DNA of 59,749 nt from Dimargaris cristalligena (Eukaryota): NCBI GenBank assembly GCA_003614675.1, contig ML002247.1, forward strand, positions 1 to 59,749, in the 5' to 3' direction. A model generated the notes under the pieces. That model was not told where the DNA came from. It was given only the letters and a program-made list of their open reading frames with translations, and searched no databases. This document shows positions 1-59,749 of this stretch, one piece after another (position 1 is the first letter of the stretch; every line of letters starts with the position of its first letter). The translations under genes were made by a program, and so were the position numbers.

Positions 1-69
1 TTACATGGGACGCTGGGCCAGCATTGGGAACCCCCAGTGATATAGTATCAACAATAGCTATAGAAATCG

Positions 70-1690
70 CAAAAAGGGGGGTGGATGGGGAAAAATGGTG
101 GGGAATGTAGGAGATATTACCCGAAGTAGCGACACAGGGAGTGTCAATTTCCAATTACTTGATGGAAATGGCAGGTGGTAGTTGAAGATTGGGGGTATTG
201 TGTGGAAAGGGAAGCTATGCCCTCGGGAGAGGAAATGGGTAAAGCAGCGACTAGCGAAGTCAAATGTATGGCAAATAGGTAAGCCCAAGAAGTATCCCCT
301 GAGAATAGTAAGTGATGGTGTCCTGGGACCACGAGATAAAGGGTCCGGAGAAGAGCGCCTAGTAAGCAATGCTTTGGGGCTTGTTTTTCTGATTGACGCA
401 GCCCGGGCCTGGTGGGAAGGTGGAGGGGGCCTGTTGTTGGCACACTATAGGGTCATTTATCTCCTAGGTCTAAGTACATTCTTGATCTAAACCGGTTGGT
501 ATAAAATAATATATAGAAAAAAAAACGTCATTAGTTAGAAGCCATTATGCACTAAAATCCCAAACCACCTTGGGAACTCGCACTTGGTTGTAGTCGTAAT
601 GAATAAAAGAACCGGCATAACAGTAAGGAAGCAAAGCGCCACCGCCCCAGCCTTCCTTTCATCCACTCTTTTACCAGCTGCAATATAAGCACTGATTATT
701 ACAATTGCAAAACAGCAGTGTAAGTGGTACTAATGGAGTAGTATATAAGGGGTGGGTGGTTGCACTGTGGTAAAAATATTCGGAATATGTATAAATATAT
801 ATAAATTAGACCTACCTTTTGTAAAACCCAATATATGGGTTTTATAATGGGCGCCTTAGGATCGGCTGTAGGGTAGTCCCTACTGGGCCGATCCTTGCCC
901 ATGGTTATGAATATTTTTTTCCAAGCCATGTCAATGAATAAAAAAGTATTTTTGGATTATATTTGAACACTCTGGGGGGGGGGCATGTGTATTTATACAT
1001 CTCCGGGGGTATGGCACCTGTCCCAGAAAAAACATGTGGATAAGACAGGGAATAAGGGTTTCCCTTACAAGAAAAATAATAATAATGAGGCCATTAGGGA
1101 AGCCAATTTTTAAGATTGTCCAGTATAACAGTATTTCCAAGTCGGTTTTTCCTTGTATTGTATACTTCCTTCTAATTCAATCCAATTCAATCACAAGTAC
1201 CACTGGTATTGTGGTTTTACATATCCCGATGGTAGGCCCTAATCTTTTCCCTGAAGGTCAGGTGGCTCTTTCACTAACAATGGTAGTTCCCACCCATTTG
1301 TAGAAGCATTCGTTCCATGAATAATACTATCTTTCCTGATGGCAGTCATGTATGGTATGGCCATTATCATCAACTTTCCTGTATAGTTAAAAAAAGGTGC
1401 ATCATCATTATTTTCTTTCTCCATTGCTAGTATGGCCCCCTGTTCCCACTTATTGACCCTTTCTTTATGTATACCCCATTTACATTGCTTAGTCTGATAT
1501 GATATCTTTATTTTCAAACCCCCCCTTCCTTACCTGTATCTAATAATAGTGATAGTAACATCAGTTCTTCAAGTTTTAGCCCCAGCAAATCCTATTCAAG
1601 CAGACTAAGGGTTGCCCCAGGCATGATGAATACATCTGAAAATTGAATGTTGTTTATTATCATGAATATTAGATTATAGATTCCTATATT
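70..1690 (-). pseudogene. Decayed copy A of an unknown spliced multi-copy gene/element (left arm of inverted duplication)
   Basis: The reverse complement aligns by eye with 3695-5330 (e.g. 1091-1195 vs 4185-4292; 815-905 vs 4485-4575). It encodes GKDRPSRDYPTADPKAPIIKPIYWVLQK followed by a GTAGGT donor, and carries stops and frameshifts. Confidence 0.7.
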
Positions 1691-2349
1691 TACTGCTACC
1701 CTGGTTGACCACTCTTAGTACATGAAGTGACCTGGTGGGTAGTTTTTTAATGGTAATACAGGTGCCAGCTAGCCCATGTGGTGTAATAGTGTCAGGTACT
1801 GGTATTCTCTATTAAAGAACAAGGTACAATATTATCAGGGACATTGCATTAGTGCATACTTACTAGTTGGTAGGGGAAATGGAGAGTCATTAAAGATGAA
1901 GATATTGGTAGAGTAGTGAAAGCATTAGATGATCATACCAGTATGCAAGTAGGGGAAGTATTCAAGACAATGAAGCAACTAGGTAGTACACATTGTACTT
2001 GGTTAGTTGGGGATACTACAGGTTGAAAAGGGATCTACTACAGTTGTTGTAAGGGTGGTTAGAGGTTACTTTAGCATGAAGGATCCCTGTCACTGGTGAC
2101 CATTCATGAATATACATATGGCCATCATTGGGTGTAGCAGGAGGTACTTCTGTGGCTGGAGCTTATAATGGCATAGTTAAGTGTTAATGAACATGGCTGC
2201 CTTTGTCTTTAGCTTCACTTTCTGTTTCTTTAGGGTAATCAGCTGGACCAACAGAAAGAACTGTGACTACTTATTAGCCTACCAAGGATTTCAGTAGGGG
2301 CCCAACACTTGGTCATCCCATCAAAACTGGTTGCTGTTCATTCTACTGT

Positions 2350-2560
2350 GGGACTTTTGGGTTTCCCCTAGACATATAAAATCTGCTGGTTTGCCTCTTC
2401 TTTTGGCCTGCATATACCAATAACACAATATTAGATAATAGAAATAGCTACAAGTAAATCTTATATAGAGAGCAGTGGTGTTGTTGGTAGGGGTTACCCT
2501 ACAACCAACCCCATTGCTCCAATTATTAAGCCCATAGTCTGGGCTTATCACAAGGTAAGT
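2350..2560 (+). pseudogene. Third, more diverged copy B of the same element
   Basis: Translates to GRGYPTTNPIAPIIKPIVWAYHK followed by a GTAAGT donor at 2554, at the same codon position as copies A and C. Confidence 0.6.
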
Positions 2561-3694
2561 TGTGAGTTTACTAATATTTATTAATATATATAACTTGTTA
2601 TCTTTTTGTGTATTGATGAGTAAAGACATTATTAATATATAGAATTCTGGTCATAATGGTTATTGAATTTCCTATGCCAAACATTTTCCCTTTTTTTGAT
2701 TAGTGTGTGTGTATAATGGTGTTAATGAGACAGTGGTACTTAGTTTCTAAGAAATTATAATGCTCACATTTCAATTATGCTATCTTTTTGGTCAAGTGTT
2801 TTCCAATTGCACATACTTTTGAATTTAATGCAGCTGTTATTGACCTAGAGCTTTACTTAATATTCCATAGTTTGTGTTGGACCTTCTAATCTAACTTTTT
2901 CCAGATATAATAATTGTCTATTCCTATTAGGCCTTATAGTACCATATTAACCTTCCTATGGTCACCCCCAGTACTATGAGATCACCCTATATTATATAAT
3001 TGTTCCCCTTCCAGACTCCTTGGTTTACACTAATCACTCCAGTGCTAATCTGAAGACCATTCCAAGTCCTCTTGGCCATCCAGTTGGTCTATTTTATCTT
3101 ACCCTAGTCTTAGTAGTATCCTTCTCTGGGGACCTCACTCTGGAGTCATCCTTGCATATATATAACTGGGCCCCACCAGGACTGTTTTGAACCTTAGCTT
3201 ATTCCTGCCCCCTAGTTTATCCTAATAAACTATATATATGCTTACCCCCCTTTGTATTTGACTAATAAGTGTGCTTACTGCACATCCCTTACTTATACCT
3301 GTATCTAGTAGCCTTTATTAGTTCATACTGTGCCCCCAACCTAATAATAGGACCTGCTTAGCTGAGCCTAAGCCCTATCTGCCATTAAAAGCCTATCCTT
3401 GTCACTCTTGATGGACTAGGAGTGGTTAACTTGGGTGACACTATTCAAATGTGAATGATTGGATACTACTCAGGCTGTGGCCTTTTATTGATGCTTATTA
3501 GGCCACCTATTATTACTATAAACTTATTACACATCCCCTATATTATTCAAAGCCTTATTATTTAAGGACCTATGTTAGATTATGGCAATTTTAATATTTG
3601 GAATATTTGAAGCACCTTTCAATAGAAATTTAAACATCTATAGTGGCATTCTACACTGACACAAAAGGGACCTATAGAATATTCCCATACATCT

Positions 3695-5330
3695 GAATTA
3701 GGAAATATTCTAGTTTTCATGACATAAAAATAGTCATTCGGTTTTATGATATATTCTTATAACCTGTAGTCATGCCTAATCCAACACAAATTGGCTTGGC
3801 TGGGCCATGCCTTGAATAAATAGCGACATTAGCATTATATTTGGTCATTAACGAGACACAGGGGGTGGGAAACAAAGGTGTCATATCTAACTAGACAATT
3901 CGAGTGTAGAATATGGGGAAAAAAGAGTCAATAACCAGGAATGGAAGGCCGTATTAACAATGCACAAATAGGATAATGCTAGTGTATCTTGTTTCTAGCT
4001 AGTAGGGAAAATCAATGGGAATAGCCGAATTGTTCTTGACTACGGCAGGGAAAAGCATTGTTATCCATAGAATGAATGCTTCACCCAATGGGTGGGAAGT
4101 ACTGTTATTAGTGAAAGAGTCGCCACCTTCACGAAAAAGATTAGGGCTTGTATATCAGGATGTATAGGTCTATTATGCTGTTTGTCTTGGTATTTGAATT
4201 GCATTGAATTAGAAGGAAGTATACAATACAAGGAAAACCCAACTAGGAAATACTGTAACACTGGAAAATGTTAAAAATCAGCTTCACTAATGGCCTCATT
4301 AGTTCTTTTTTTTTATCCTGTGTGGGAATCCCTTATTCCCCGGCCAATATATCTGTTTTTTCTGGGTCAGGAGTTGTACCCCCAGAATTATATAAATGCA
4401 CCTGCTCCTGTCGCCCAAAGTTTATGAATATAAATTTACTGTCACACATTATTTGACTATGGCTTTGATTAATATCATTCTAACCAGGGGCAAGGATCGG
4501 CCCAGTAGGGATTACTCTACAGCCGATCCTAAGGCGCCCATTGTAAAACCCATATATTGGGTTTTACAAAAGGTAAGCTCACACTTTTATAAATATATAT
4601 ATATATGTTGTTAATATTATCACTTCGGTGCAACCCTCCGGCCTTTTTATACTTCTCCATTGGTGATCATTACACTGCCATTTGACCGTTGGAATATTTC
4701 ATACTGATACTACAATTAGTGAAAGGGTGGGGGTGAAAGGATAATTGGGGTGGTGGCTGCTTGTTTCCAAGGAGTTATACTGACCCTTGTCCCATTTGCC
4801 ACGACGGCCAATTTTTCATTCCTAGCATGTTAGAAGTTATAATACAGGGGCCTCTTTCAAATGCGTAATGGATTCTAACTAATGATGATATATCTATTGT
4901 ATTTTATAATACCTTGTCCCCTCTATACAGATTAAAAACACATTTAGGTCTAGAAAGTAACCGACCCTATAGTGCAGCTCTGATGGGCCCCCCTCACCTC
5001 TGTACCTGGACCATACTGCGTCAAATGGGTTATTATGCCCCATAACATGGCCTTACTGGTCACAATTCCCCGGGCCTTTCCCCCCTGGACGCGGATGCCA
5101 CTACTAACTGTTTCCTGGGGGTTCTTTTTAGAGTTCTATCAGTCATCTATTAACATTATTTGTGCAGGTCACTGCTTGGCCTCACTTCCTCTCCCGGCAG
5201 CATAATCACCTTTCAACTTTAATACCGCCAACCGTCACCTGCCATTTCCATCGAGTAATTGGAAATCGCCACTCTGGGTAATATATCCTTCATTACCCCC
5301 CATTGTTCCCCATTCACTACCCTTTTTACT
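3695..5330 (+). pseudogene. Decayed copy C (right arm of inverted duplication)
   Basis: Encodes GKDRPSRDYSTADPKAPIVKPIYWVLQK followed by a GTAAGC donor at 4573. It mirrors 70-1690 and has in-frame stops. Confidence 0.7.
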
Positions 5331-5477
5331 ATGTGGAACGACAAATTGGTAAAATAGCGTGCAGGTATAGAATTCTCCGAGGTTCACTATACACTATGTC
5401 TAACCTGGTGCTATTGCATCCTGGTTTAAATATTAAATAATAAATCAACCCATTCTATAACTTCCTATTAATAATAG

Positions 5478-5690
5478 TGACATTACCTGCTAGAGCGTGA
5501 AGGTGTCTCCTGTAGCAAGCCTACGCACTAAGTTGGGTTCGAATAGTAGTGACCACGGCGAGGCGTATCCCTCACAGCCTGTGATTCGCCTGAGCTTCTG
5601 CGGTCACCGCGTTGAGACCTCATAATACCCCTACTCTGTGGTTAGCGCGTTAACTACTTACCAAATGGCCTTAGGGCAGTAACATTTCTT
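5478..5690 (+). ncRNA. Candidate structured non-coding RNA of unassigned family
   Basis: Nested complementary segments read by eye: TTAC(C)TGCT/GGCAGTAA, AGGT(G)TCTC/GAGACCT, GTGACC/GGTCAC, AGGCG/CGCCT, TCACA/TGTGA and GTGGTTAG/TTAACTAC. It is a GC-richer island in AT-rich flanks. Confidence 0.3.
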
Positions 5691-5912
5691 GCATGACTTA
5701 GTTAAGAATAGCTCTTTCTATTCAACTATCTCCATTTTTAGATTGCTTTATTCAACCCTAATTCGAAATCTCAGTAAGGAGACGGAAGCACAATCAGCCT
5801 GTATTTGTTTTCCCTCTCCCCTCCCCTTCAGCACCACCCAATCGTCGCATTACTTGAATTCGGAACCTATATTTTTTTTTGCTACGCTGCGTTGTCCGAT
5901 TCATTGGGCCTC

Positions 5913-6822
5913 ATGAGTGCCTACGACGATCTCATCGGGGGTTCCCTTAAGTTGAAAGGAAAAGGCGGGGGAGTTACCAAGTAAGTTACACCTCCATCCC
6001 AGGGCGATTCGGTTACATACATTCCAATGGAGTGTCAGGGAGGTGCACCTCCTTCCTCAGTATTGCATTAGGCGATCCCATTTTACATTGAAGCTGGAAC
6101 CATGATCCCCTCAGACTTGACATGCCACATTGAGGTATTTCACCTAACTCTCGCATGTACCGTATGTCCCATCTACGCGTCTTTACAACCCTCGCTCCAC
6201 CGCTTACAGAAAGAGTAAAAAGTCCAAGAAGTCGAAAAAGGCTAGTCACAGTGGTAGTAGCGGCAGCGGTAGATCAACTGCTAAGCAATACGACCAGAGC
6301 CAAGATGGCGATTCAAGTCAGATTATCACTCCCGCTGAAGCATCAGTAGCCAAAACCAAGGCTGAAATTGAATTCGAAAAGGCCCAAGAAAGACGGGTAA
6401 GTTCGTGGATTGATTATTTAGTAGTTTGGCGGCGACTGGGGACTAGTTAGTTAGTCGGACACTCTCATTCAGCAGCTCTAAGAGTGCTTTTACATTTCGA
6501 TATACGGTCACTCCATTTGATTTGAAGACAGTCAAGGCCATGACGGAGTGTATCCACCCCCTCTCCTCGGTATATATTACCACCTATAACTTAGTTTGAT
6601 TAGAAGTGCGGATACTTACATATATGGATCTCTTTATTCTTGGTATATATATTCTTATTGTGGGGGGTGTATTATTATGGCCATTCCCGGCATCTTTACT
6701 AGAAAATGAAACAATACTCCAAATTCGTCGAGAAATCCCATCCCGAACGGGTGGCTGAGTTTAACGAGAAATTAGACAAACTATCCGAGCACTATGATAT
6801 TCCGAAAGTGGGACCTGGCTAA
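5913..6822 (+). CDS. FAM32A-family (DUF1754) small basic nuclear protein
   Basis: Exons 5913-5980, 6210-6396, 6703-6822 with GT-AG introns, in frame. Begins MSAYDDLIGGSLKLKG, contains KTKAEIEFEK, and ends LSEHYDIPKVGPG, the family signature. Confidence 0.9.
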
Positions 6823-7045
6823 TGTGTGCTGCTGTGTCGATGGTTTGATCCCATCGATCGCCTAGCGACTCACTTCGCTATTCCCCTTTACTATATTCCA
6901 AATTACCTCGTTTGTTGTTGGAGGAGGGATGTCGGAAGTATGTTTGACCCTTTTGATTGGCCATTTTCCGGCTGGGTGCCGCAGTACTGTAAATCCCACC
7001 TTTCCCACCCAGTCGCTCGTTCTATTTCTCTCACCCTTTATCAAT

Positions 7046-7190
7046 AAATGGGTGAACTTCAACCCAACTGTATAAGATTTTACACAATATGTGTATGGGA
7101 GAATATGTGGGAGAATAACTTTTGACCAGTAATATTTACCTCATCAAATGGATTATTCGTTATACAGCCTGGATGAATATCTGCCAAATT
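7046..7190 (-). repeat. Dispersed ~150 bp relic repeat, copy 1
   Basis: Similar to 23233-23388 (same orientation) and 33966-34112 (inverted). Residual peptide on the minus strand: HPGCITNNPFDE...PYTYCVKSYTVGLKFTH. Confidence 0.75.
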
Positions 7191-7512
7191 TTACTGTTTA
7201 TGTTTTATCAATCCCCCCCCCAGTCACTAAATCTGAGCAATTTGCTTGGGGTTGGGCTAAAATCGCGCAGTATAGGTTGTTGACTCATCTGTAGCGAGTT
7301 GAGTGCTGGGCGTTTTTAGGAAGGCACTGGAAGCCATGGATTTTTGTGACGGGGAACTGCGGAAGTCCCCTTCTAACCCAATCGAGGTTGGTTAAGTATC
7401 CCAATAATGGTTAAAAGGGGGAGATTGGCAGGCATTAAAGTTTAGTTCTAGCGGAGGAAAGTCCTAATTGACATGGGTTAAAGAGGAAGGGCCGATTGAC
7501 AGCAGCTATTGT

Positions 7513-8036
7513 GTGACGTCACGGGCTTTAGTTTAATAGTGCCGTAAAGCAAGGGAGAATGGCCTGTCCAAACTTGGCACGTAGTTTCCTTTATTGGCAG
7601 TGGTAAGGGGGGGAAGTTGAATTGTTTGGACCTATGGTAATGAATGACGCAGGGCTTAAAATTGGGTGTAACCCTCACTAACTACTACTTATTGACGTAA
7701 TAATTCCGATTGGTTCCCACACCATCGAGATTTATGGGGGCGCATCCCGCAGCAAGCTCCGTCCAAAATAACTAACTAAGCCATTCACACCTTCTCTACC
7801 CATGTGCCGCTTCAATAGAATCTATTCATTAGCCCCTGTCTATAGAGAAATAGAGAGAAACACCCCTGCCATTCTTGGTGACGAATGACGTATGACCACC
7901 CATCGACATCGGAGAAGCGGAACCATGGCTACGAAATGAATGACGAAGAGGCGTATTATTATTAACCTTCCGCTCGTCATCCATCTAGGTCTATCTTCGC
8001 CCGGCTAACCTCGCACACAGCCAGTCACAGATGACG
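7513..8036. promoter_or_regulatory. Cluster of CRE/ATF-type (TGACG) sites upstream of the RTC3-like gene
   Basis: Palindrome GTGACGTCAC at 7513-7522; TGACG at 7645, 7693, 7879, 7886, 7941 and 8032; CGTCA at 7975. A TATA-like (TA)n run lies at ~8245. Confidence 0.6.
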
Positions 8037-17498: not shown

Positions 17499-18473
17499 AT
17501 GTGTCTTCCCACTGACATTCCGACTACTTCCGCCGCCCCAGCGACCGATGCCACCTACGAGAGCCTGGAGGCCCTCCTACTCAATCACAGTGGCCAAGTG
17601 TCCCTCGCCGAGCGGTTCCGGGCCCTTTTCAGTCTCAAAGCGCTCCCGGACCAACGCAGCGTTGACATCATCGGCCGCGGCTTTGCGGATTCCTCGGCCC
17701 TCCTCAAGCACGAGCTGGCCTACGTGCTGGGTCAGATGGGTAACCCCCACGCCCTGCCCGTCCTGGAACAGGTCCTGCGGGACGACGCTGAAGACGTGAT
17801 GGTCCGCCACGAAGCGGCCGAAGCCCTGGGGGCCATTGGTCAACCGGAATCGTTGCCGGTATTGCGGGAATTCGTCAACCACCCCGCGGCGCCCATTGCC
17901 GAAACTTGTGAACTGGCGGTAGGTCGCATTCAATACGAAGCGGACCAACAGGCGCCTAGTACTGCTACGATTGATGCCGATGCCAAGGCCGCTATTCTTT
18001 ACGCCTCCGTTGACCCGGCCCCGGCCCATAACGACGCTTCCCAGTCCACCGAAGCCCTCGGTCACCGACTGATGGACCCGAATCTCCCCCTGTTCGAACG
18101 GTACCGCGCCATGTTCGCCCTGCGTAACCGGGGTGACACCGCAGCGGTTGAGGAGCTGGCCCGGGGTCTGGAAGACCCTACGAGTGCCCTGTTCCGCCAC
18201 GAAATCGGGTTCGTGTTCGGGCAGATGCAGCATCCCGCCAGCGTCCCCGCGCTGGTCAAGGCGCTTGCCAATACCGCCGAGGAACCCATGGTGCGTCACG
18301 AATGTGCCGAGGCTTTGGGGTCCATTGCGAGCCCCGAGGTGCTCCCGGTGTTGCAGACGTTCAGTAAGGACCCTGAACGTGTGGTGCGGGAGAGTTGTAT
18401 TGTGGCCTTGGATATGTATGAGCATGAACAGAGTGGTCAGTTCCAGTATGCTACCGTGCCGGATTCCCAATAG
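17499..18473 (+). CDS. LIA1: Deoxyhypusine hydroxylase
   Basis: Intronless 324 aa HEAT-like protein with four HE motifs (LLKHELAY, VRHEAAEALG, LFRHEIGF, VRHECAEALG) and SVDPAP. Confidence 0.97.
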   Translation: MCLPTDIPTTSAAPATDATYESLEALLLNHSGQVSLAERFRALFSLKALPDQRSVDIIGRGFADSSALLKHELAYVLGQMGNPHALPVLEQVLRDDAEDVMVRHEAAEALGAIGQPESLPVLREFVNHPAAPIAETCELAVGRIQYEADQQAPSTATIDADAKAAILYASVDPAPAHNDASQSTEALGHRLMDPNLPLFERYRAMFALRNRGDTAAVEELARGLEDPTSALFRHEIGFVFGQMQHPASVPALVKALANTAEEPMVRHECAEALGSIASPEVLPVLQTFSKDPERVVRESCIVALDMYEHEQSGQFQYATVPDSQ

Positions 18474-34112: not shown

Positions 34113-34895
34113 TAGCGGAGACTACTAGCCCCACATCCCTTTTAATTATTAAAGCGGATGGTAGGTGTTCAATAGTAAAAATCCGGTGGACAAGAGCGAG
34201 CGTCATCTGGCCAATATACCGGGATCATATCTCCCCCTAAGTAAGGAAGCCCCATTGGAAGCCGGGATCCAGCACCCGGATCCAGAACCACGGGTTTCAG
34301 AGTTCCTGGTAATATTTTTGCTTAAGTCAATTTTTGTCAAGTACGCCTGTCTCCACTATGTGAGACCACCAAACGCCATTTCTGGCACATGTTATCTACG
34401 CTCACCCTGTGGGTGGTAGATTATATAGCTCAGATGATCAAATGTGGCGGGATGATGATAGTCACGGGCTAAGACTAGGGCTGACCTTTCGGAATTCCTC
34501 TTTTTGGTGGACTATCCCTTGGTAGAAGCGATATGCTATCAGGTATATTTCGGCGAAGTTAGTTTTCATTGGCATTGGGGTTTCACCACCCATATCCGCC
34601 CACGGTACTAATCAACCGTAGTCCAGAGCAAATGTAAAAATACAGGCTTCCCTTTCATTTGACCGAATACCACCATTTCATATATCTCATTTTTCAAGAT
34701 TATAGCACTGGCAACTGGTTGCCATGTATAGTTCACCTACGCATTGGCACATATTTTCATTGTAGTAGCATCGCATGTGATCGGTTAGGGATCCCCATTT
34801 TTCGCATTTGCATTATTTCGTTTCCTACACAGCTATTTATTTTTATTATCATCAGCTGTCTTGCATTGAGCCCCGATTTTCTAAAAATATTCAAG

Positions 34896-37599
34896 ATGGT
34901 TAATCTAATGCCCCCGTTTAATCTCGACAAGAGCCCCCTCAGTCGCCACAATTCGGTCAATAGTAGTATCTTCAGTTTCCGGCCCCGGCGCCACACGGTC
35001 ACTGTACCCGAAGCCAAACCCCAGGAGCTGCGCCGTGGTTTCCGGGCCTACGAGGAGGAAATCATTCCCGGCAACGTGGGCAAAGAACAGATCATCCAAA
35101 CCGAACTAACCTCGGTCATTCCCGGGGTGTCCGCGTGCGACGAGCGGTTTCTCCTCCTCTCGGGTCTCCAGCCGGGCATTTACGTAGTCGTCTTCATCAA
35201 CCCCTATTCAGGGGGACAAATGGGTATGGAGCTGCTCAAACTCCGGTTCCAGCATTTCCGGTTACGCGAAAACAACCGAGTCCAGATTCAGTGGTACAAC
35301 ATGTTTGACGACGAGGACCGCGACCGTGGGGTCGAGTATTTGCGCTGGATCCTGACGGCCAAGGAAACCGTCAACAGTCTGCTACGTAACGCCGGGCGGC
35401 GGTCCATTGACATTTACTACATCGATAACGCCCGCCTAACGTCTCACAACCCCCGCGCCAAATCCGGGTCCATGGTGTTCTTTGACGATCTCAACGTCGC
35501 CAAATTGCCCCCGGAGGACCGCGATTTTATTTACCAATATGCCCATAAAACGACGGTGGCGCCCTTTGAGGTGCACGTATGGAGCGCTGGGGGGGACGGC
35601 ACGGTCATGTCGGTGTACGATATGTTGGTGAGCGAAAACATCTCCTTTTCCAGTATCTACTTCTCGTGTATCCCCTTCGGCACGGGTAATGATATGAGCC
35701 AGGCACTGGGGTGGGGACGTACCGTAAAAAAGAATTTGGTGAGCGCTAATTTATCGAACCTCATCAGCTTGACCGAGAGTCGACTCACCGGTGATTTGGC
35801 CCTGTTGGACGTCTGGGAAGTGGAAATCAAAACCTTCCCCGGTGGCTACGTGAAGGAGATTCACAAGAATGATAAGGATTCGACCAAGCGCCAGACTTAC
35901 CGCCGTCGGTTTTGCAGCCTGTTCAGCATGGGTGTACAAGGTAAAGTTCAATGAGTATTATTTTGGGATAGCCTATATACATTTATGGGTGGCTATACTG
36001 AACCGGGTTGCTAAGGATACACTTTAAATACTGCTAAATGGCCGCCTATCCCTCTACCTAGAATGCGGATAAGTATCGCACCCCATGATAGTTCGTAGCC
36101 TACATAAGCCACCCACTGTAAAAATGGAGCGGTCCCATCCCCTCGTACTCGTAATAATTCGTCAATATCCGACCTTAAACAACCTAATATCTAACCATCA
36201 CCACTCTACCGACCTATCGATCCATTGGCTAATAGGTCTCGTCGGTAAGGAGTTTGAACCCCGTCGTACCAAGTCGCGCATTCGCAATATTTTGCAATAT
36301 ACCGCCCAGTCGGCCAAATGGGTGACCCTTCGGAAATTCCCGGTCATCACGGAAATCCTCGAGTCCATTGAACAAAACGGTCGGATTGTCATGAAGACCG
36401 CCATGCCTAAGCTCTACGATGACTTAAGCCCCGAGGTCCGGGCGCGGGCGGCCCTACCGGACACGGACGCCAACGGGGTCCCCATTCCAGTTCTGGATAT
36501 CCACCCGATTGAAATCATTGCCCAAAACATTCCCCACATTTGGGGTCGCGACCACGATTTGTGGGGCCAGGCCAAATCCCTGCCTATCATGAGCCAGCGC
36601 AACGGCCCGACGGACCAAAATAACTGGACCCCCCAAAACAGCGGCGACGGAAAACTCGAAGTGTTCATCATCGAGAGCGTGAAATCCTATATTCGTAAAC
36701 AAATGACCACCAAGGACAGTTTGGGGCGCATTGGTCAGTTGCAGGAGGACTTCACGATGCGGTTCCGGAATCCCGAGGTGTACCAGAGTTTCCATAATAA
36801 TTCGTCTCATACCAATCGGCGCCATAAAGCGACGCCCCCGGGATTTACGTGTCTGATGATCGACGGAGAGTTTTATGAACTGTTTCAGCCCCAGACCATT
36901 GAAATTCGCCGACACTCTTGTATCCGGGCCATCGGGTCGGGTGAACAGAATTCCCGGTTGGTGCGCGATACGCAGAATTATTGCCAAACCCTCCATACGC
37001 CGTCCATGACCCCCACGCCCAATTCCCCCAATCCAACCCCGACGTTGGGGTCCGGTCGGGGGATAGATACCTCCGCCGGACCGGCGGTCATGGTTCCTCT
37101 CGAAGGAGAACAAACCGTGGTCAATAGTAACAACGATCCGGGTGGTCCCAGCCCCAGTGGTATGGGTGGTGGTGATGTAGATGCTGGTACTTCGGGGCTA
37201 TTACATCCCTCATCCCAGCTGCCTAACGAGCGCAACGTTATGGTTCACCATGAACCGGTCCAAGTCGAGGTATCGCTTGATTCCGCCGAATGCACTTCCA
37301 ATTCGCGGGCCACGAAGGTGGTCCCCCAACCAACGGATGGTCAGGCGGTTCCGGGGGGGCCACCCATGCCTTCCCCCCTCCAACCAGTGGCCCCGATGCA
37401 CCCGGCTGTCATGCGAGTTAAGGAGATACCCCCCCATACTCGAAAGGTGTCCACCATTAATAACTCCTATTTCGCGAAAGTGGATTTCAAGATTCCGTCC
37501 AAATCTTTCAGCGACGCTAAATCCACCAACGTGATTGAGCCCAACCGACACATATCGCCGGCATTAGAGCCCGAATCACCATCCCCCACACCTCAATAG
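34896..37599 (+). CDS. ATP-dependent diacylglycerol kinase family protein (DAGKc + DAGKa)
   Basis: Exons 34896-35940 and 36236-37599 (phase-1 intron). Motifs VFINPYSGG, SAGGDGTV, PFGTGNDMSQALGWG, FSMG, IWG, DGKLEV and IDGE, then a disordered C-terminal tail. The start codon is inferred. Confidence 0.85.
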
Positions 37600-37793: not shown

Positions 37794-37800
37794 AAAAAAA
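37794..37800 (-). terminator. RNA polymerase III oligo-T terminator of the 5S gene
   Basis: A-run on the plus strand directly abutting the 5S 3' end. Confidence 0.7.
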
Positions 37801-37917
37801 GTTATAGCATTAACTATTCCCAAGTGGTCACCCACCTCAGTACTAAATTAACTGACCGGAGCTTATCTTCGCAGATCTAACGGGATACGGAGCAGAAGCC
37901 GACATGTGGCCATAATT
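37800..37917 (-). rRNA. 5S rRNA gene (solitary, divergent)
   Basis: Minus strand reads AATTATGGCCAC...CCGTATCCCGTTAGATCTGCGAAGATAAGC...TTAGTACTGAGGTGGGTGACCACTTGGGAATA...GCTATAAC, then a T-run. About 118 nt; the terminal helix pairs; box A and box C are recognisable. Confidence 0.9.
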
Positions 37918-47408: not shown

Positions 47409-49076
47409 CTACGCCAAATACTCAGCACCTTCACTGCCCACCCGTTTGAGGCATTTCGCCACCTCATGGTCCCAGTCGGTGCGGAAATAGAAGTGAAGTT
47501 GGGCGAAACAAACGGATATTACGCCGCTGCACAGCCCGGTCCAAATCCCCACAATACCCCAGTCCTGCACGAAGGCCAAATGCAGGCCAATAGGGATGGC
47601 AATCATGTAATAACCGGGCAGGGACAGCAATGCGCCGAGTTTCTGGCGACCCTGACCGCGCAGAATGCCCCCCACGACGGCCGAGACTCCGTCGCAGATC
47701 TGGTAAACGGCGGCGATTTTCATGAGCATAGCCACGAGCTCAATAACCACGGGGGAGTCGGTGAAGACATGGCCCCAAATACTACTGACGGCGACGAAGA
47801 AGAACGAGTTGCAGCTGCCCATGACGATGGCGAACCCAATGGCCACGGCGCCGGCCAGACGGGCGGCCCGGGGTCGCGCGGCCCCCAACAAATTACCGAT
47901 GCGGGCGGTGGAGGCCACACTGATGCCCTGGGGGATTTGGTAGCTGAGGGCCGAGGTGGTCATGATGACGGACTGGGCGGCCAACGGCGTGTTGCCCAAA
48001 TAGGATACGATGAGGGCCACGAATTCAAAGGCCCACCATTCCGCGCAAATCATCAAAACCCCCGGGAGACCCAGTTGCATAAATTGCCCCAATTTGCGGA
48101 ACCCCTGGCGGGACCAACCCCCCCAGGCTTGGTACCCGTCCACATACGCGGTGTACAGCACCAGCAGAATGAACATGAGCCAGTACGACAAACTAGTGGC
48201 CAAGGGTGCGCCAATGAAGCCCAGCGCAATCGGTTCGTACCACACCAGCGCATAATTGGTCAGAACGTTCAGGGGCGCCACAATGCACAGCACCAGGGTA
48301 CTGGCGTGCATGATGCCCTGGGCCTGGAGGTAGCGCTTGATGCATTCGAAAAGCAGGTTGGGTAGACACCCCAGCATGAGGTAGCGCAGGTAGGTGCCGG
48401 CCAAATGGGCGATGTTGGGGTCCTGGTGGAGGGCCAGGAGCAGCCATTCGCTGTTCCACCACAATAACATGATGGGGAAATGGAAAGCCGTGACCGCCAC
48501 AATCCCGCGCTGGAGATAGGTACCGACGGCGTGGACGTCGCAGGACCCGGTGTAGGACTGACTGCACAAGGTATCGAGGGCGGTGATCAGGCCAATACCG
48601 ACGGCCCACCCGGTCACGGTGGCGAACATGGTGGCCAAGGCGGAGGCGGCCAGAGCATCGGGGCCCAGGTGGCCCAGCGAAAAGACGCTGGCCATGTTGA
48701 TGGAATATTGGAGCAAGTAGGCTAGGACCACGGGGTACGATAATTTGGCCAGAATCTTGGCCTCCTGGCGGTACTCGGACCAGCTGAACGGGGAGGTCGA
48801 CGGTCCGCCGTATAAACTTTCGGAACCCAAAGAGCTGGAGGACGGCGAGGTGGGTAGTGTGACGATGGCATCGTAGAGCGGTGGCGGGGCGTTGCCGCTG
48901 CTGGTGGTAGACCCTACGACGGTGGCCAAACTGGCGGCGGACGGACTTGCCCGTTTGGGGGAGCCCAGGAGGTTGGCGCCGGGGGTGGTCAGGAACGGAG
49001 TGGTCTCCCGGGCCGACAAGTCCGAATTTTGGGTGCCGAACAGTTGTTGGCTGATGTTGTTCCAGAACGAAACCAT
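47409..49076 (-). CDS. MATE family efflux transporter (ERC1-like)
   Basis: 555 aa. Motifs GHLG..ALAA, ALDTLCSQSY, RYLQAQG, CAEWWAFE, RIGNLLGA, GILRGQGRQ and TDW. Confidence 0.96.
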   Translation of the reverse strand: MVSFWNNISQQLFGTQNSDLSARETTPFLTTPGANLLGSPKRASPSAASLATVVGSTTSSGNAPPPLYDAIVTLPTSPSSSSLGSESLYGGPSTSPFSWSEYRQEAKILAKLSYPVVLAYLLQYSINMASVFSLGHLGPDALAASALATMFATVTGWAVGIGLITALDTLCSQSYTGSCDVHAVGTYLQRGIVAVTAFHFPIMLLWWNSEWLLLALHQDPNIAHLAGTYLRYLMLGCLPNLLFECIKRYLQAQGIMHASTLVLCIVAPLNVLTNYALVWYEPIALGFIGAPLATSLSYWLMFILLVLYTAYVDGYQAWGGWSRQGFRKLGQFMQLGLPGVLMICAEWWAFEFVALIVSYLGNTPLAAQSVIMTTSALSYQIPQGISVASTARIGNLLGAARPRAARLAGAVAIGFAIVMGSCNSFFFVAVSSIWGHVFTDSPVVIELVAMLMKIAAVYQICDGVSAVVGGILRGQGRQKLGALLSLPGYYMIAIPIGLHLAFVQDWGIVGIWTGLCSGVISVCFAQLHFYFRTDWDHEVAKCLKRVGSEGAEYLA

Positions 49077-57249: not shown

Positions 57250-57972
57250 GAAGAGCGAGGGCAGCTTCTCTCTCTCTCTCTCTCTCACATCATCTCCCTC
57301 TTTGTTCCAAATGGACCTTTCTCCACCACTCCCATTCACTCACATATCTATTTTTACTATTTTAATACCCTCGTATTGGCCGGGTTCTCTACTTAATAAT
57401 CGGATTTAATGGATTGTTCAGACTCTTCCTCTTTCGTTCTCCATAATATGTATACACATATATGCCAAAACTATAAACAGTCACTTAATCTTCAATATCA
57501 TGGGGGGTTTTTTTTCTTCATTTGGTTATGTTTTCAGGTCGATGTTGCACTAACCGGATACTTCTCCATCCTCACAAGTAGTTTTATTAGTGGCTTATAT
57601 TACTAATTCGTCCTTTCCGTACATATACCCAGCTATCATATCTGATGCCACACCGCCGCACCCTTGTGTTGCTTAGTCAAGCGTGATCAACGTCTACCCT
57701 CGCCTTATATATACATTCATACACCTATAGCCATTTCGTCATCATGGTTAGTTTATGTGTAATCAATCAGTTATGGGTAAATATAAATGTAAAGAAATCC
57801 ACATTTTAAATATATATATATATATATTTAAGAAAAACAATCCTCGACTAATAGTCGATGAAGAGTTTAGGAAAGTATGAGTAAAACGGATTCGTAATAG
57901 TAGGGATTGTATGCCAACCGATGTAGTGACCCGGGACACCACAAATGCCTGGAGGCCATACATGGTCATCTA

Positions 57973-58028
57973 CAAGTGATAAACGAGGGCCAAGAAAGGT
58001 GGAGGAGAAACGGCTTAACTAAAGACCG
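57973..58028 (+). repeat. 56-bp perfect inverted repeat, left copy
   Basis: Exact reverse complement of 59642-59697. Confidence 0.97.
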
Positions 58029-59641: not shown

Positions 59642-59697
59642 CGGTCTTTAGTTAAGCCGTTTCTCCTCCACCTTTCTTGGCCCTCGTTTATCACTTG
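59642..59697 (-). repeat. 56-bp perfect inverted repeat, right copy
   Basis: Exact reverse complement of 57973-58028; starts 8 nt after the IDO stop codon. Confidence 0.97.
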
Positions 59698-59749
59698 CAG
59701 CTGCCCATGACGATGGCGAACCCAATGGCCACGGCGCCGGCCAGACGGG
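59695..59749 (+). repeat. 55-bp exact copy of MATE gene interior (47809-47863)
   Basis: TTGCAGCTGCCCATGACG...CCAGACGGG is identical at both sites. Confidence 0.97.

What the first reader, a model, noticed from the sequence alone, without database searches (positions are those of the whole stretch)
1313..3738. 2.4 kb with zero CpG: possible CpG-targeted, RIP-like genome defence in an early-diverging fungus
Seen: reading line by line I find no CG dinucleotide between the CG at 1311 and the CG at 3739. GC, CC and GG are common there, and dozens of CpG would be expected at this base composition. The rest of the window has abundant CpG. The zone covers the spacer and the inner left arm of an inverted duplication. 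The mirrored right arm (3739-4070) keeps several CpGs, so erasure looks domain-bounded rather than sequence-bounded. Established: classical RIP (Pezizomycotina) targets mostly CpA, and 5mCpG deamination depletes CpG in methylated repeats. Inference: complete erasure suggests very efficient methylation-driven or RIP-like mutation at duplicated sequences in this lineage.
Basis: partly seen in the sequence, partly recalled or inferred. Interest (0 to 1): 0.72.

Follow-up and report, generated by a model that had tools for sequence, protein, structure and literature searches.

The report
CpG-free core of a fungal repeat cluster
A 2.4-kb stretch with no CG dinucleotide at all is real and lies in the middle of a cluster of old repeats in an early-diverging fungus, and it most likely shows the known decay of methylated CG sites carried to an unusually complete end, not a new defence system.

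Summary
There is no CG between 1311 and 3739 (0 seen, 82.6 expected; next largest gap 209 bp).

The tract is the core of the only CpG-poor block in this 59.7-kb contig (701-5100, o/e 0.21; genes 0.84).

It is a mosaic:
- the inner 374 bp of the left arm of a diverged inverted repeat;
- about 1.1 kb that is single-copy in public contigs;
- a third degenerate copy of a hairpin motif;
- a 516-bp fragment of a high-copy repeat;
- about 300 bp of low-copy DNA.

Every piece is CpG-free.

Between the arms, CpG is the least conserved dinucleotide (24% against 57.5%). Of 37 differing CpG sites, 23 are single CG/TG or CG/CA transitions. Outside the tract the arms keep equal numbers of private CpGs (17 against 16). 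Inside it the count is 0 against 7.

There is no general C-to-T excess, no AT enrichment and no CpA target, so classical RIP fails.

Best reading: dense CpG methylation with 5mC deamination, limited to a domain. Methylation and DNMT genes could not be tested because no genome is held. This is a new, extreme example of a known kind.

The parts
1313..3738 (.). CpG-free tract (0 CG, 82.6 expected)
1..1686 (+). Left arm of a diverged inverted repeat (low-copy repeat family 'A'). It is cut by the contig end. The outer part 1-1312 has CpG o/e 0.35-0.53; the inner part 1313-1686 has none.
   Evidence: other genomic copies 10-14% diverged, table 8
3699..5400 (-). Right arm of the inverted repeat (family 'A'). 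CpG o/e is 0.45-0.59. Repeated DNA runs on to about 6140 by depth.
   Evidence: depth table 2
1687..2486 (.). Spacer segment with no detectable relative in the window, single-copy in public contigs. 0 CG against 31.2 expected.
   Evidence: (tables 2, 8)
2487..2600 (-). Third, degenerate copy of the arms' hairpin motif, in the orientation of the right arm. The three CpGs of the motif read TG, CA and CT here.
2601..2924 (.). AT-rich spacer segment (GC 29%). 0 CG against 6.9 expected.
2925..3440 (+). Fragment of a high-copy dispersed repeat ('B'), cut at both ends. 0 CG against 21 expected.
   Evidence: summed depth 27,000-52,000 in X1 against about 1,040 for single-copy; loose ends at 2923/2925 and 3440
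3441..3698 (.). Low-copy segment between repeat B and the right arm, CpG-free. Another genomic copy spans 3660-4147 with 69 differences.
   Evidence: tables 2, 8
812..905 (+). Two-hairpin motif of the left arm. It holds the 3 CpGs (852, 863, 889) that both arms share in the 700-1324 block, half of the 6 they share in all.
4483..4576 (-). The same two-hairpin motif in the right arm (90-94% identical to the left copy, against 72-80% for the rest of the arms)
7048..7177 (+). Second fragment of repeat B. In other genomic copies it follows position 3440 after 19 letters. 1 CG against 3.8 expected.
   Evidence: tables 2, 5, 5c, 7
5900..6822 (+). First ordinary gene to the right of the cluster (FAM32A-like). 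CpG o/e is back to 0.83 over 5401-7047.

Best explanation
The first 5-6 kb of the contig is a nested cluster of old, non-coding repeats. It holds two copies of a low-copy family in inverted orientation, a truncated piece of a high-copy family, and unique relic DNA between them.

In this fungus such DNA loses CG by C-to-T transitions. The most likely cause is that CpGs in silenced repeats are densely methylated and 5-methylcytosine deaminates to thymine (inferred, not shown). The 2.4-kb zero tract is the core of that methylated domain. It cuts across the borders of the elements, running 374 bp into the left arm and about 40 bp into the right arm. There the decay has gone to completion. The flanking arms are only partly depleted, and the neighbouring genes are untouched.

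Shown: the CpG void, its significance, its mosaic make-up, the transition signature at CpG sites, and the absence of a RIP-type signature.

Inferred: methylation, its domain-like extent, and the very high ratio of CpG loss to CpG gain. A back-of-envelope equilibrium gives expected CG = (TG+CA)/(2k) = 321/(2k). At most 3 expected CG then needs k of about 50 or more.
For: 1. The depletion is specific to CG: 0 of 82.6 expected, with GC at 75 of 82.6.
2. TG and CA are in excess by about 42 over the window's norm, which is roughly 60% of the 69 missing CG (computed).
3. Between the arms, CpG is the least conserved dinucleotide (12 of 49, 24%, against 1652 of 2871, 57.5%; p = 6e-6). Of 37 differing CpG sites, 23 are single transitions.
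4. In the tract, 3 of the 4 aligned right-arm CpGs read TG in the left arm. In the third motif copy, 2 of 3 motif CpGs read TG or CA.
5. The only block of the contig with o/e below 0.45 that is longer than 400 bp is 701-5100, which is the repeat cluster. Beyond 7500 the mean is 0.85 and the minimum 0.40.
6. All six sub-pieces, of different origin, are at zero. The arms are symmetric outside the tract (17 against 16 private CpGs) and asymmetric inside (0 against 7; two-sided binomial about 0.016, my arithmetic).
7. Other copies of repeat B differ at CG/CA. The loose-end consensus left of 2925 has two CG in run X3 where run X5 has CA (table 7).
8. The lineage plausibly methylates CpG. CDCA7F occurs in two Kickxellomycotina, and nearly all CDCA7-bearing species have DNMT1 (PMC10538959, passages read). 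DNMT sets are called diverse in Zoopagomycota (PMC7074731, passage).
Against: - No methylation data and no DNMT gene could be examined, because no genome is held.
- Zero in 2.4 kb is more extreme than passive decay gives in vertebrates (bulk o/e about 0.2, recalled). The process must be unusually efficient, or an active one.
- Only about 60% of the missing CpGs show up as TG/CA excess.
- 14 of 37 differing CpG sites are not simple transitions. Some of these may be misalignment in regions of 60-75% identity.
- The high-copy repeat B may be CpG-poor family-wide. Glimpses of other copies in the loose ends show about one CG in roughly 250 nt. Its zero may therefore be inherited and not made at this locus, which weakens the domain argument.
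- The 0-against-7 asymmetry rests on 7 sites.
- Only one locus was seen.
Confidence: 0.55

Rival explanations
1. An active, enzyme-driven, CpG-specific hypermutation (RIP-like or MIP-like, carried out by a DNMT1-family enzyme) was triggered by the inverted duplication. It spread into, or centred on, the DNA between the arms and converted essentially every CpG in one or a few episodes.
For: - The completeness (0 of 82.6) and the step-like edges. CG occurs about every 63-76 bp in the flanking arms, then none for 2426 bp.
- The erasure crosses element borders.
- CpG-targeted, RIP-like mutation is described in other fungi: TpCpG in Pucciniomycotina (PMC3318451, abstract) and a CpG signature linked to Masc2-type Dnmt1 (PMC4352252, abstract and section 12).
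- RIP can leak into adjacent single-copy DNA (stated in PMC4014442, passage).
Against: - The duplicated arms, which should be the primary targets, are less depleted (o/e 0.35-0.59) than the single-copy spacer.
- The arms are only 72-80% identical and show no directional C-to-T excess.
- No TCG preference is visible. TCG and CGA are well represented among the surviving arm CpGs (read). TTG is at 1.31 times the rest of the window but CAA at 0.83.
- One locus cannot separate an episode from long decay.
Confidence: 0.18
2. The loss is bounded by sequence, not by a domain. The tract is simply a patchwork of the oldest relics in the cluster. Each piece lost its CpGs by the same methylation-linked decay over a longer time, or arrived already CpG-poor, as repeat B may have. 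The arms are younger, or were refreshed by gene conversion from other copies. On this reading no special local chromatin domain exists.
For: - The unique part has no relative at 80% or more anywhere in four contig sets.
- The third motif copy is far more decayed than the two in the arms.
- Repeat B looks CpG-poor in other copies too (table 7).
- The right arm has more close relatives than the left (depth, table 2).
- Identity along the arms is uneven: 72%, 80% and 74%, and 90-94% in the motif. That would fit conversion.
Against: - The left edge lies inside one continuous repeat copy.
- The inner arms (74% identity without gaps) are no more diverged than the outermost arms (72%). Yet the left inner arm has 0 CpG and its mirror has 7, while the outer arms are balanced at 17 against 16.
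Confidence: 0.2
3. The tract is CpG-free by origin or by selection: foreign DNA from a CpG-avoiding source, or DNA selected to lack CpG.
For: The void is absolute and the tract has no homologue in any search made.
Against: - Part of the tract is homologous to the resident repeat family A and to the resident high-copy family B.
- GC content (37%) matches the arms (38-39%).
- There is no ORF over 109 aa and no Pfam hit.
- Aligned sites show CG replaced by TG or CA, which is decay in place.
Confidence: 0.04
4. Chance, base composition or an assembly artefact.
For: None beyond the low GC content (37%).
Against: - P is about e^-83 from base composition, and about e^-49 at the mean of a first-order Markov model of the CpG-poor arms (means).
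- None of 2000 simulations under the arm model fell below 27 CG.
- Independent contigs reproduce the sequence.
Confidence: 0.01

Closest known systems
CpG decay of methylated transposable elements by 5mC deamination (vertebrates; fungal repeats with a CpG mutation signature, e.g. Tuber, Microbotryum, rusts: Amselem et al. 2015, PMC4352252)
   Same: The depletion is specific to CG, with TG/CA excess. CG/TG and CG/CA differences dominate at CpG sites between repeat copies. It is confined to repeats while genes keep normal CpG.
   Different: The loss is complete over 2.4 kb (o/e 0; 95% upper bound about 0.04, my arithmetic), where partial loss is usual. It includes DNA that is now single-copy. 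It occurs in a Kickxellomycotina-like lineage, for which my searches found no description. Methylation is not demonstrated here.
RIP-like TpCpG hypermutation of Pucciniomycotina (Horns et al. 2012, PMC3318451, abstract read)
   Same: C-to-T change at CpG in repetitive DNA of a fungus outside the Pezizomycotina.
   Different: No TCG preference could be shown. The duplicated arms are less affected than the unique spacer, and the lineage is different.
Classical RIP of Neurospora and other Pezizomycotina, with leakage into neighbouring single-copy DNA
   Same: The mutated zone has sharp edges, is associated with a duplication and reaches into single-copy DNA.
   Different: The target is CpG, not CpA. 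CpA+TpG is raised, not lowered: (CpA+TpG)/(ApC+GpT) is 1.20 against 1.11 in the rest of the window. There is no AT enrichment and no directional C-to-T excess.
CpG-biased 'RIP-like' SNPs of Rhizoctonia solani AG8 (Hane et al. 2014, PMC4014442, passages read)
   Same: CpG-to-TpG bias in a fungus, more frequent near repeats. The authors also name methylation plus deamination as the alternative cause.
   Different: There it is genome-wide, includes genes and is only a moderate bias. Here it is a local, complete erasure with the genes spared.

Membership tests
Classical RIP (Neurospora type) | C-to-T transitions mainly at CpA, which lowers (CpA+TpG)/(ApC+GpT) and raises TpA/ApT | tested here: not met
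   CA o/e is 1.09 and TG 1.18, both raised. (CpA+TpG)/(ApC+GpT) is 1.20 in the tract against 1.11 elsewhere. TpA/ApT is 1.09 against 0.90. The index thresholds are recalled, not from a call.
Classical RIP (Neurospora type) | Acts on duplicated DNA; both copies are mutated and become AT-rich | tested here: not met
   The arms keep CpG (o/e 0.35-0.59), while the single-copy spacer 1687-2486 is at zero. GC is 35% (left) against 37% (right) in the inner arms. C>T 18 against T>C 16.
Classical RIP (Neurospora type) | RID-type cytosine methyltransferase homologue in the genome | not testable with these tools
   No whole genome is held.
RIP-like TpCpG hypermutation (Pucciniomycotina) | Preference for TCG over other NCG | tested here: inconclusive
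   All 8 NCG/CGN trinucleotides are at zero. TTG is at 1.31 times the rest of the window but CAA at 0.83; CAT is at 1.45 and ATG at 1.09. TCG and CGA survive in the arms. Numbers are small.
RIP-like TpCpG hypermutation (Pucciniomycotina) | Hypermutation seen across aligned copies of repeat families | not testable with these tools
   Other genomic copies were seen only as depth and 30-letter consensus ends. Read laying is capped at one call.
5mC-deamination decay of methylated repeats | CpG-specific deficit with TpG/CpA excess | tested here: met
   CG 0 of 82.6. TG+CA is 321 against about 279 expected at the window's norm.
5mC-deamination decay of methylated repeats | CpG sites evolve faster than other sites, by transitions | tested here: met
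   Conservation is 24% against 57.5% (p = 6e-6). 23 of 37 differing sites are single transitions.
5mC-deamination decay of methylated repeats | Confined to repeats or heterochromatin, with genes spared | tested here: met
   Within this one contig, 701-5100 has o/e 0.21 and the rest averages 0.85. Genome-wide this was not testable.
5mC-deamination decay of methylated repeats | CpG methylation present at the locus, and a maintenance DNMT (DNMT1 or DNMT5) in the genome | not testable with these tools
   No reads with base modifications and no genome. There is only indirect literature on related Kickxellomycotina. The source data of that paper are supplements, which I could not see.

The most novel reading that the evidence does not exclude
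Kickxellomycotina-type fungi have a highly efficient, CpG-specific C-to-T conversion process. It would be driven by a DNMT1-family enzyme and work like RIP, but act on a chromatin domain of a few kb that is nucleated at nested or inverted repeats. It would wipe out every CpG in the domain, single-copy DNA included. That would make it an early-diverging counterpart, or a forerunner, of RIP/MIP.
Probability: 0.13. Interest if true: 0.7.

Novelty: new member of a known kind. Interest (0 to 1): 0.4.

Why it matters
If the tract reflects dense CpG methylation, it is a clean genomic footprint of 5mC-based repeat silencing in a zygomycete lineage (Dimargaritales-like Kickxellomycotina), where cytosine methylation has hardly been studied. 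My literature searches found nothing on CpG loss in repeats of this group.

The completeness of the loss, and the fact that it crosses element borders, make this locus a good test case. It can help separate passive decay of 5mC from an active, RIP-like deamination outside the Dikarya, which bears on where RIP and MIP came from.

If the ordinary reading is right, the result is a useful marker of heterochromatin for annotating this genome, and no more than that.

Tried and rejected
- Whole genome: none is held. Genome-wide CpG profiles, alignments of repeat families and DNMT searches were therefore impossible.
- Expression: no RNA holder is listed among the runs. This says nothing either way.
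- Coding content: the 10 longest stop-to-stop ORFs of 1-5205 gave no Pfam hit at E up to 1. ORFs 2951-3190 and 58-444 gave no protein homologue. The repeat families therefore stay unclassified.
- RNA families: Rfam found only the 5S gene at gathering score. At E up to 1 in 1-7600 it found two chance-level hits. ARAGORN found no tRNA.
- Further homology of the spacer: apart from the hairpin motif, 1687-2924 has no significant match to either arm on either strand (scores 15-18 against shuffle maxima of 17-19).
- A split-insertion idea: I considered that 3441-7047 was inserted into one copy of repeat B, because other copies join 3440 to 7048. I rejected it because an ordinary FAM32A-like gene lies in between. 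These are two separate B fragments.
- An MDA-chimera or assembly origin of the inverted repeat: rejected, because the arms are only 72-80% identical.
- Earlier findings of this scan: none for this genome or sequence. Word searches gave only unrelated phage, bacterial and ascomycete cases.
- Literature on 5mC or DNMTs in Zoopagomycota or Dimargaritales: two reviews contain nothing or one general sentence. A giant-virus paper that names a Dimargaritales species has nothing on its methylation. The paper on cytosine methylation across the fungal tree of life was not among the 8 papers listed for my title-phrase search (84 papers held both phrases), so what I say about it is recalled.
- Tandem repeats: only five short AT-rich arrays.


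Full report
**Observation**

The window has 2706 CG dinucleotides. None lies between 1311 and 3739, a gap of 2428 bp, and the next largest gap is 209 bp.

The tract 1313-3738 (2426 bp, 37% GC) should hold 82.6 CG by base composition and holds none. GC (75), CC (147) and GG (110) are common.

Chance is excluded:
- 2000 shuffles of the tract never gave fewer than 57 CG.
- 2000 simulations from a first-order Markov model of the CpG-poor flanking arms averaged 48.9 and never fell below 27.
- The poorest window of the same size outside the repeat cluster has 78.

Independent contigs from public runs reproduce the sequence over 1152-2538, 2509-2944 and 3102-4232 with 0-1 differences (table 8). Those runs may be the window's own source. 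A run of a second study covers 1444-2341 with 14 differences.

**Setting**

The window is a whole contig (one search reports a longest contig of 59749) of a eukaryote with split genes. It carries IDO, an SPX-type transporter, MatE, a diacylglycerol kinase, RPN6, deoxyhypusine hydroxylase and a 5S rRNA gene.

The one protein I used for placement (deoxyhypusine hydroxylase, 17499-18473) has its best named hits in Tieghemiomyces (69%) and Dispira (67%). Other Zoopagomycota, chytrids and Mucoromycota follow. So "early-diverging fungus" is reasonable, on one marker.

The only block of the contig with CpG o/e below 0.45 that is longer than 400 bp is 701-5100 (33 CG against 160.7 expected, o/e 0.21). 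Beyond 7500 the mean is 0.85 and the minimum 0.40.

**Anatomy**

BLAST sees an inverted repeat at 715-1324 against 4678-4061 (77%), with weaker outer pieces out to 71 and 5327. A more sensitive local alignment carries the arms inward to 1303-1686 against 4082-3699 (score 82; the best of 30 shuffles scored 18).

Laying public contigs at 80% likeness or more gave copy numbers for the parts:
- The arms belong to a low-copy family ("A"). Other copies are 10-14% diverged.
- 1336-2403 carries only its own contig, at single-copy depth, in all four runs. In X1 the depth is 1035 against 1049-1161 for the unique flank.
- 2925-3440 is a fragment of a high-copy family ("B"). Its summed depth is 27,000-52,000 in X1, with loose ends at 2923/2925 and 3440.
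- A second B fragment lies at 7048-7177. In other copies it follows 3440 after 19 letters.
- 2487-2600 is a third, degenerate copy of a two-hairpin motif of the arms (score 40 against a shuffle maximum of 17).

No ORF in the tract exceeds 109 aa. The 10 longest stop-to-stop ORFs of the cluster (1-5205) have no Pfam hit.

Every sub-piece is CpG-free:

| Sub-piece | CG seen | CG expected |
|---|---|---|
| 1313-1686 | 0 | 11.0 |
| 1687-2486 | 0 | 31.2 |
| 2487-2600 | 0 | 3.5 |
| 2601-2924 | 0 | 6.9 |
| 2925-3440 | 0 | 21.0 |
| 3441-3738 | 0 | 6.7 |

The arms outside the tract have o/e 0.35-0.59. The gene-bearing DNA from 5401 has 0.83.

**Mutational signature**

The arms were aligned over 60-1686 against 5335-3699, and 43 CpG sites fall in ungapped columns:
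- 6 are shared. Three of these lie in the conserved hairpin motif.
- 23 differ by a single CG/TG or CG/CA transition.
- 14 differ otherwise. Some of these are probably misalignments.

CpG is the least conserved of the 16 dinucleotides (12 of 49 against 1652 of 2871 for the rest; Fisher p = 6e-6).

Outside the tract the private CpGs are balanced, 17 in the left arm and 16 in the right. Inside the tract the left arm has none and the right arm has 7, of which 4 are aligned, and 3 of those 4 face TG.

In the tract, TG (o/e 1.18) and CA (1.09) exceed the window's norm (1.01 and 0.97). This accounts for about 42 of roughly 69 missing CpGs.

The loose-end consensus of B copies just left of 2925 differs between runs, with CG at two sites in one run and CA in the other (table 7). 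This is thin evidence that copies of B also vary at CpG by transitions.

**What it is not**

- Substitutions between the arms are symmetric. In the inner arms C>T is 18 against T>C 16, and G>A is 8 against A>G 8.
- GC content is equal between the arms.
- The tract is not AT-enriched relative to the arms.
- CpA+TpG is raised, not lowered.
- The duplicated arms are less depleted than the single-copy spacer.

Classical RIP therefore fails on its defining features. The TpCpG preference of the Pucciniomycotina process (PMC3318451, abstract) cannot be shown either. All NCG are gone, the product trinucleotides give no consistent signal, and TCG survives in the arms.

**Mechanism**

The pattern is the known footprint of CpG methylation followed by 5mC deamination. 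It is CpG-specific, it works by transitions, and it is restricted to repeats with the genes spared. I take this as the best explanation (0.55).

The zero tract would be the densely methylated core of a domain that cuts across element borders. Two things keep me from more confidence:
- Methylation and DNMT genes could not be examined, because no genome is held.
- Zero in 2.4 kb is extreme. With 321 TG+CA sites able to mutate back, a simple equilibrium (CG about 321/2k) needs CpG loss about 50 times faster than the back-transition to give 3 or fewer expected CG. This is my own estimate.

An active, DNMT-driven conversion therefore stays open (0.18).

A third reading (0.20) keeps the same chemistry but denies a local domain. 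On it the tract is a patchwork of the oldest relics plus a B fragment that was CpG-poor on arrival, and the arms are younger or were refreshed by gene conversion. Against it, the left edge lies inside one continuous repeat copy. The inner arms (74% identity without gaps) are also no more diverged than the outermost arms (72%).

Foreign origin or selection (0.04) and chance or artefact (0.01) are poorly supported.

**Comparison with what is known**

- CpG-biased C-to-T change in fungal repeats is in print for rusts, Microbotryum and Tuber, where it is linked to Masc2-type Dnmt1 (PMC4352252, abstract and section 12).
- It is also in print for Rhizoctonia solani (PMC4014442, passages). Those authors themselves name methylation plus deamination as the alternative to a RIP-like process.
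- For the present lineage I found only indirect hints of CpG-methylation machinery. CDCA7F occurs in Coemansia and Linderina, and nearly all CDCA7-bearing species have DNMT1 (PMC10538959, passages). The species table of that paper is a supplement that I could not open.
- My searches found no description of CpG erasure in repeats of Zoopagomycota. That is a statement about those searches only.

**Verdict**

CpG-targeted transition decay bounded by a domain is supported. "RIP-like mutation at duplicated sequences" is not.

This is a new and unusually complete example of a known kind of process in a little-studied lineage. Interest is 0.4.

The boldest reading still allowed is a domain-wide, CpG-specific active deamination system outside the Dikarya. 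I give it a probability of about 0.13. It would deserve about 0.7 if true.

Noticed in passing
window 812-905 (+), 4483-4576 (-), 2466-2562 (-): A two-hairpin motif of about 95 nt is 90-94% identical between the arms, while the rest of the arms is 72-80% identical. As RNA, 805-935 folds at -56.3 kcal/mol (z = -6.1; 0 of 200 shuffles fold as well). The motif holds 3 of the 6 CpGs that both arms share. The degenerate third copy keeps the fold through 4 compensatory pairs out of 33. No Rfam family matches. It could be a functional part of repeat family A or a small RNA.
   Followed up: partly
window 2925-3440 and 7048-7177: These are two fragments of one high-copy dispersed repeat. Summed contig depth is tens to hundreds of times the single-copy level. 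Other copies join 3440 to 7048 through 19 letters and run on to the left of 2925. Depth is highest at the 7048-7177 end, as expected for 5'-truncated retroelement copies. The family is unclassified.
   Followed up: partly
window 5341-6141: This stretch has normal CpG content but 2-7 times single-copy depth in the public contigs. It includes a GGTTCGAAT (T-loop-like) motif near 5537. ARAGORN and Rfam find no tRNA or other RNA there.
   Followed up: no
window 47809-47863 and 59695-59749; 57961-58028 and 59642-59709: The last 55 bases of the contig are identical to a stretch inside the MatE-type gene. A 68-base stretch near the contig end is a 96% inverted copy of a stretch at the start of the IDO reading frame. 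This may be a paralogue cut by the contig end or a small dispersed repeat.
   Followed up: no
window 37799-37917 (-): A single 5S rRNA gene (82 bits) lies among protein-coding genes, so 5S genes are dispersed here and not linked to an rDNA unit within this contig.
   Followed up: no
window 34659-37599 (+): Two adjacent ORFs carry the catalytic and accessory domains of a eukaryotic-type diacylglycerol kinase. This is probably one gene split by an intron.
   Followed up: no
window 1444-2341: The run of a second study differs from the reference at 14 of 898 positions here. It differs at 4 of 1136 positions in 5940-7075 and at 0 of 844 positions in 7157-8000. The CpG-free DNA is therefore the most polymorphic part seen between samples. 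The kinds of change were not shown.
   Followed up: no
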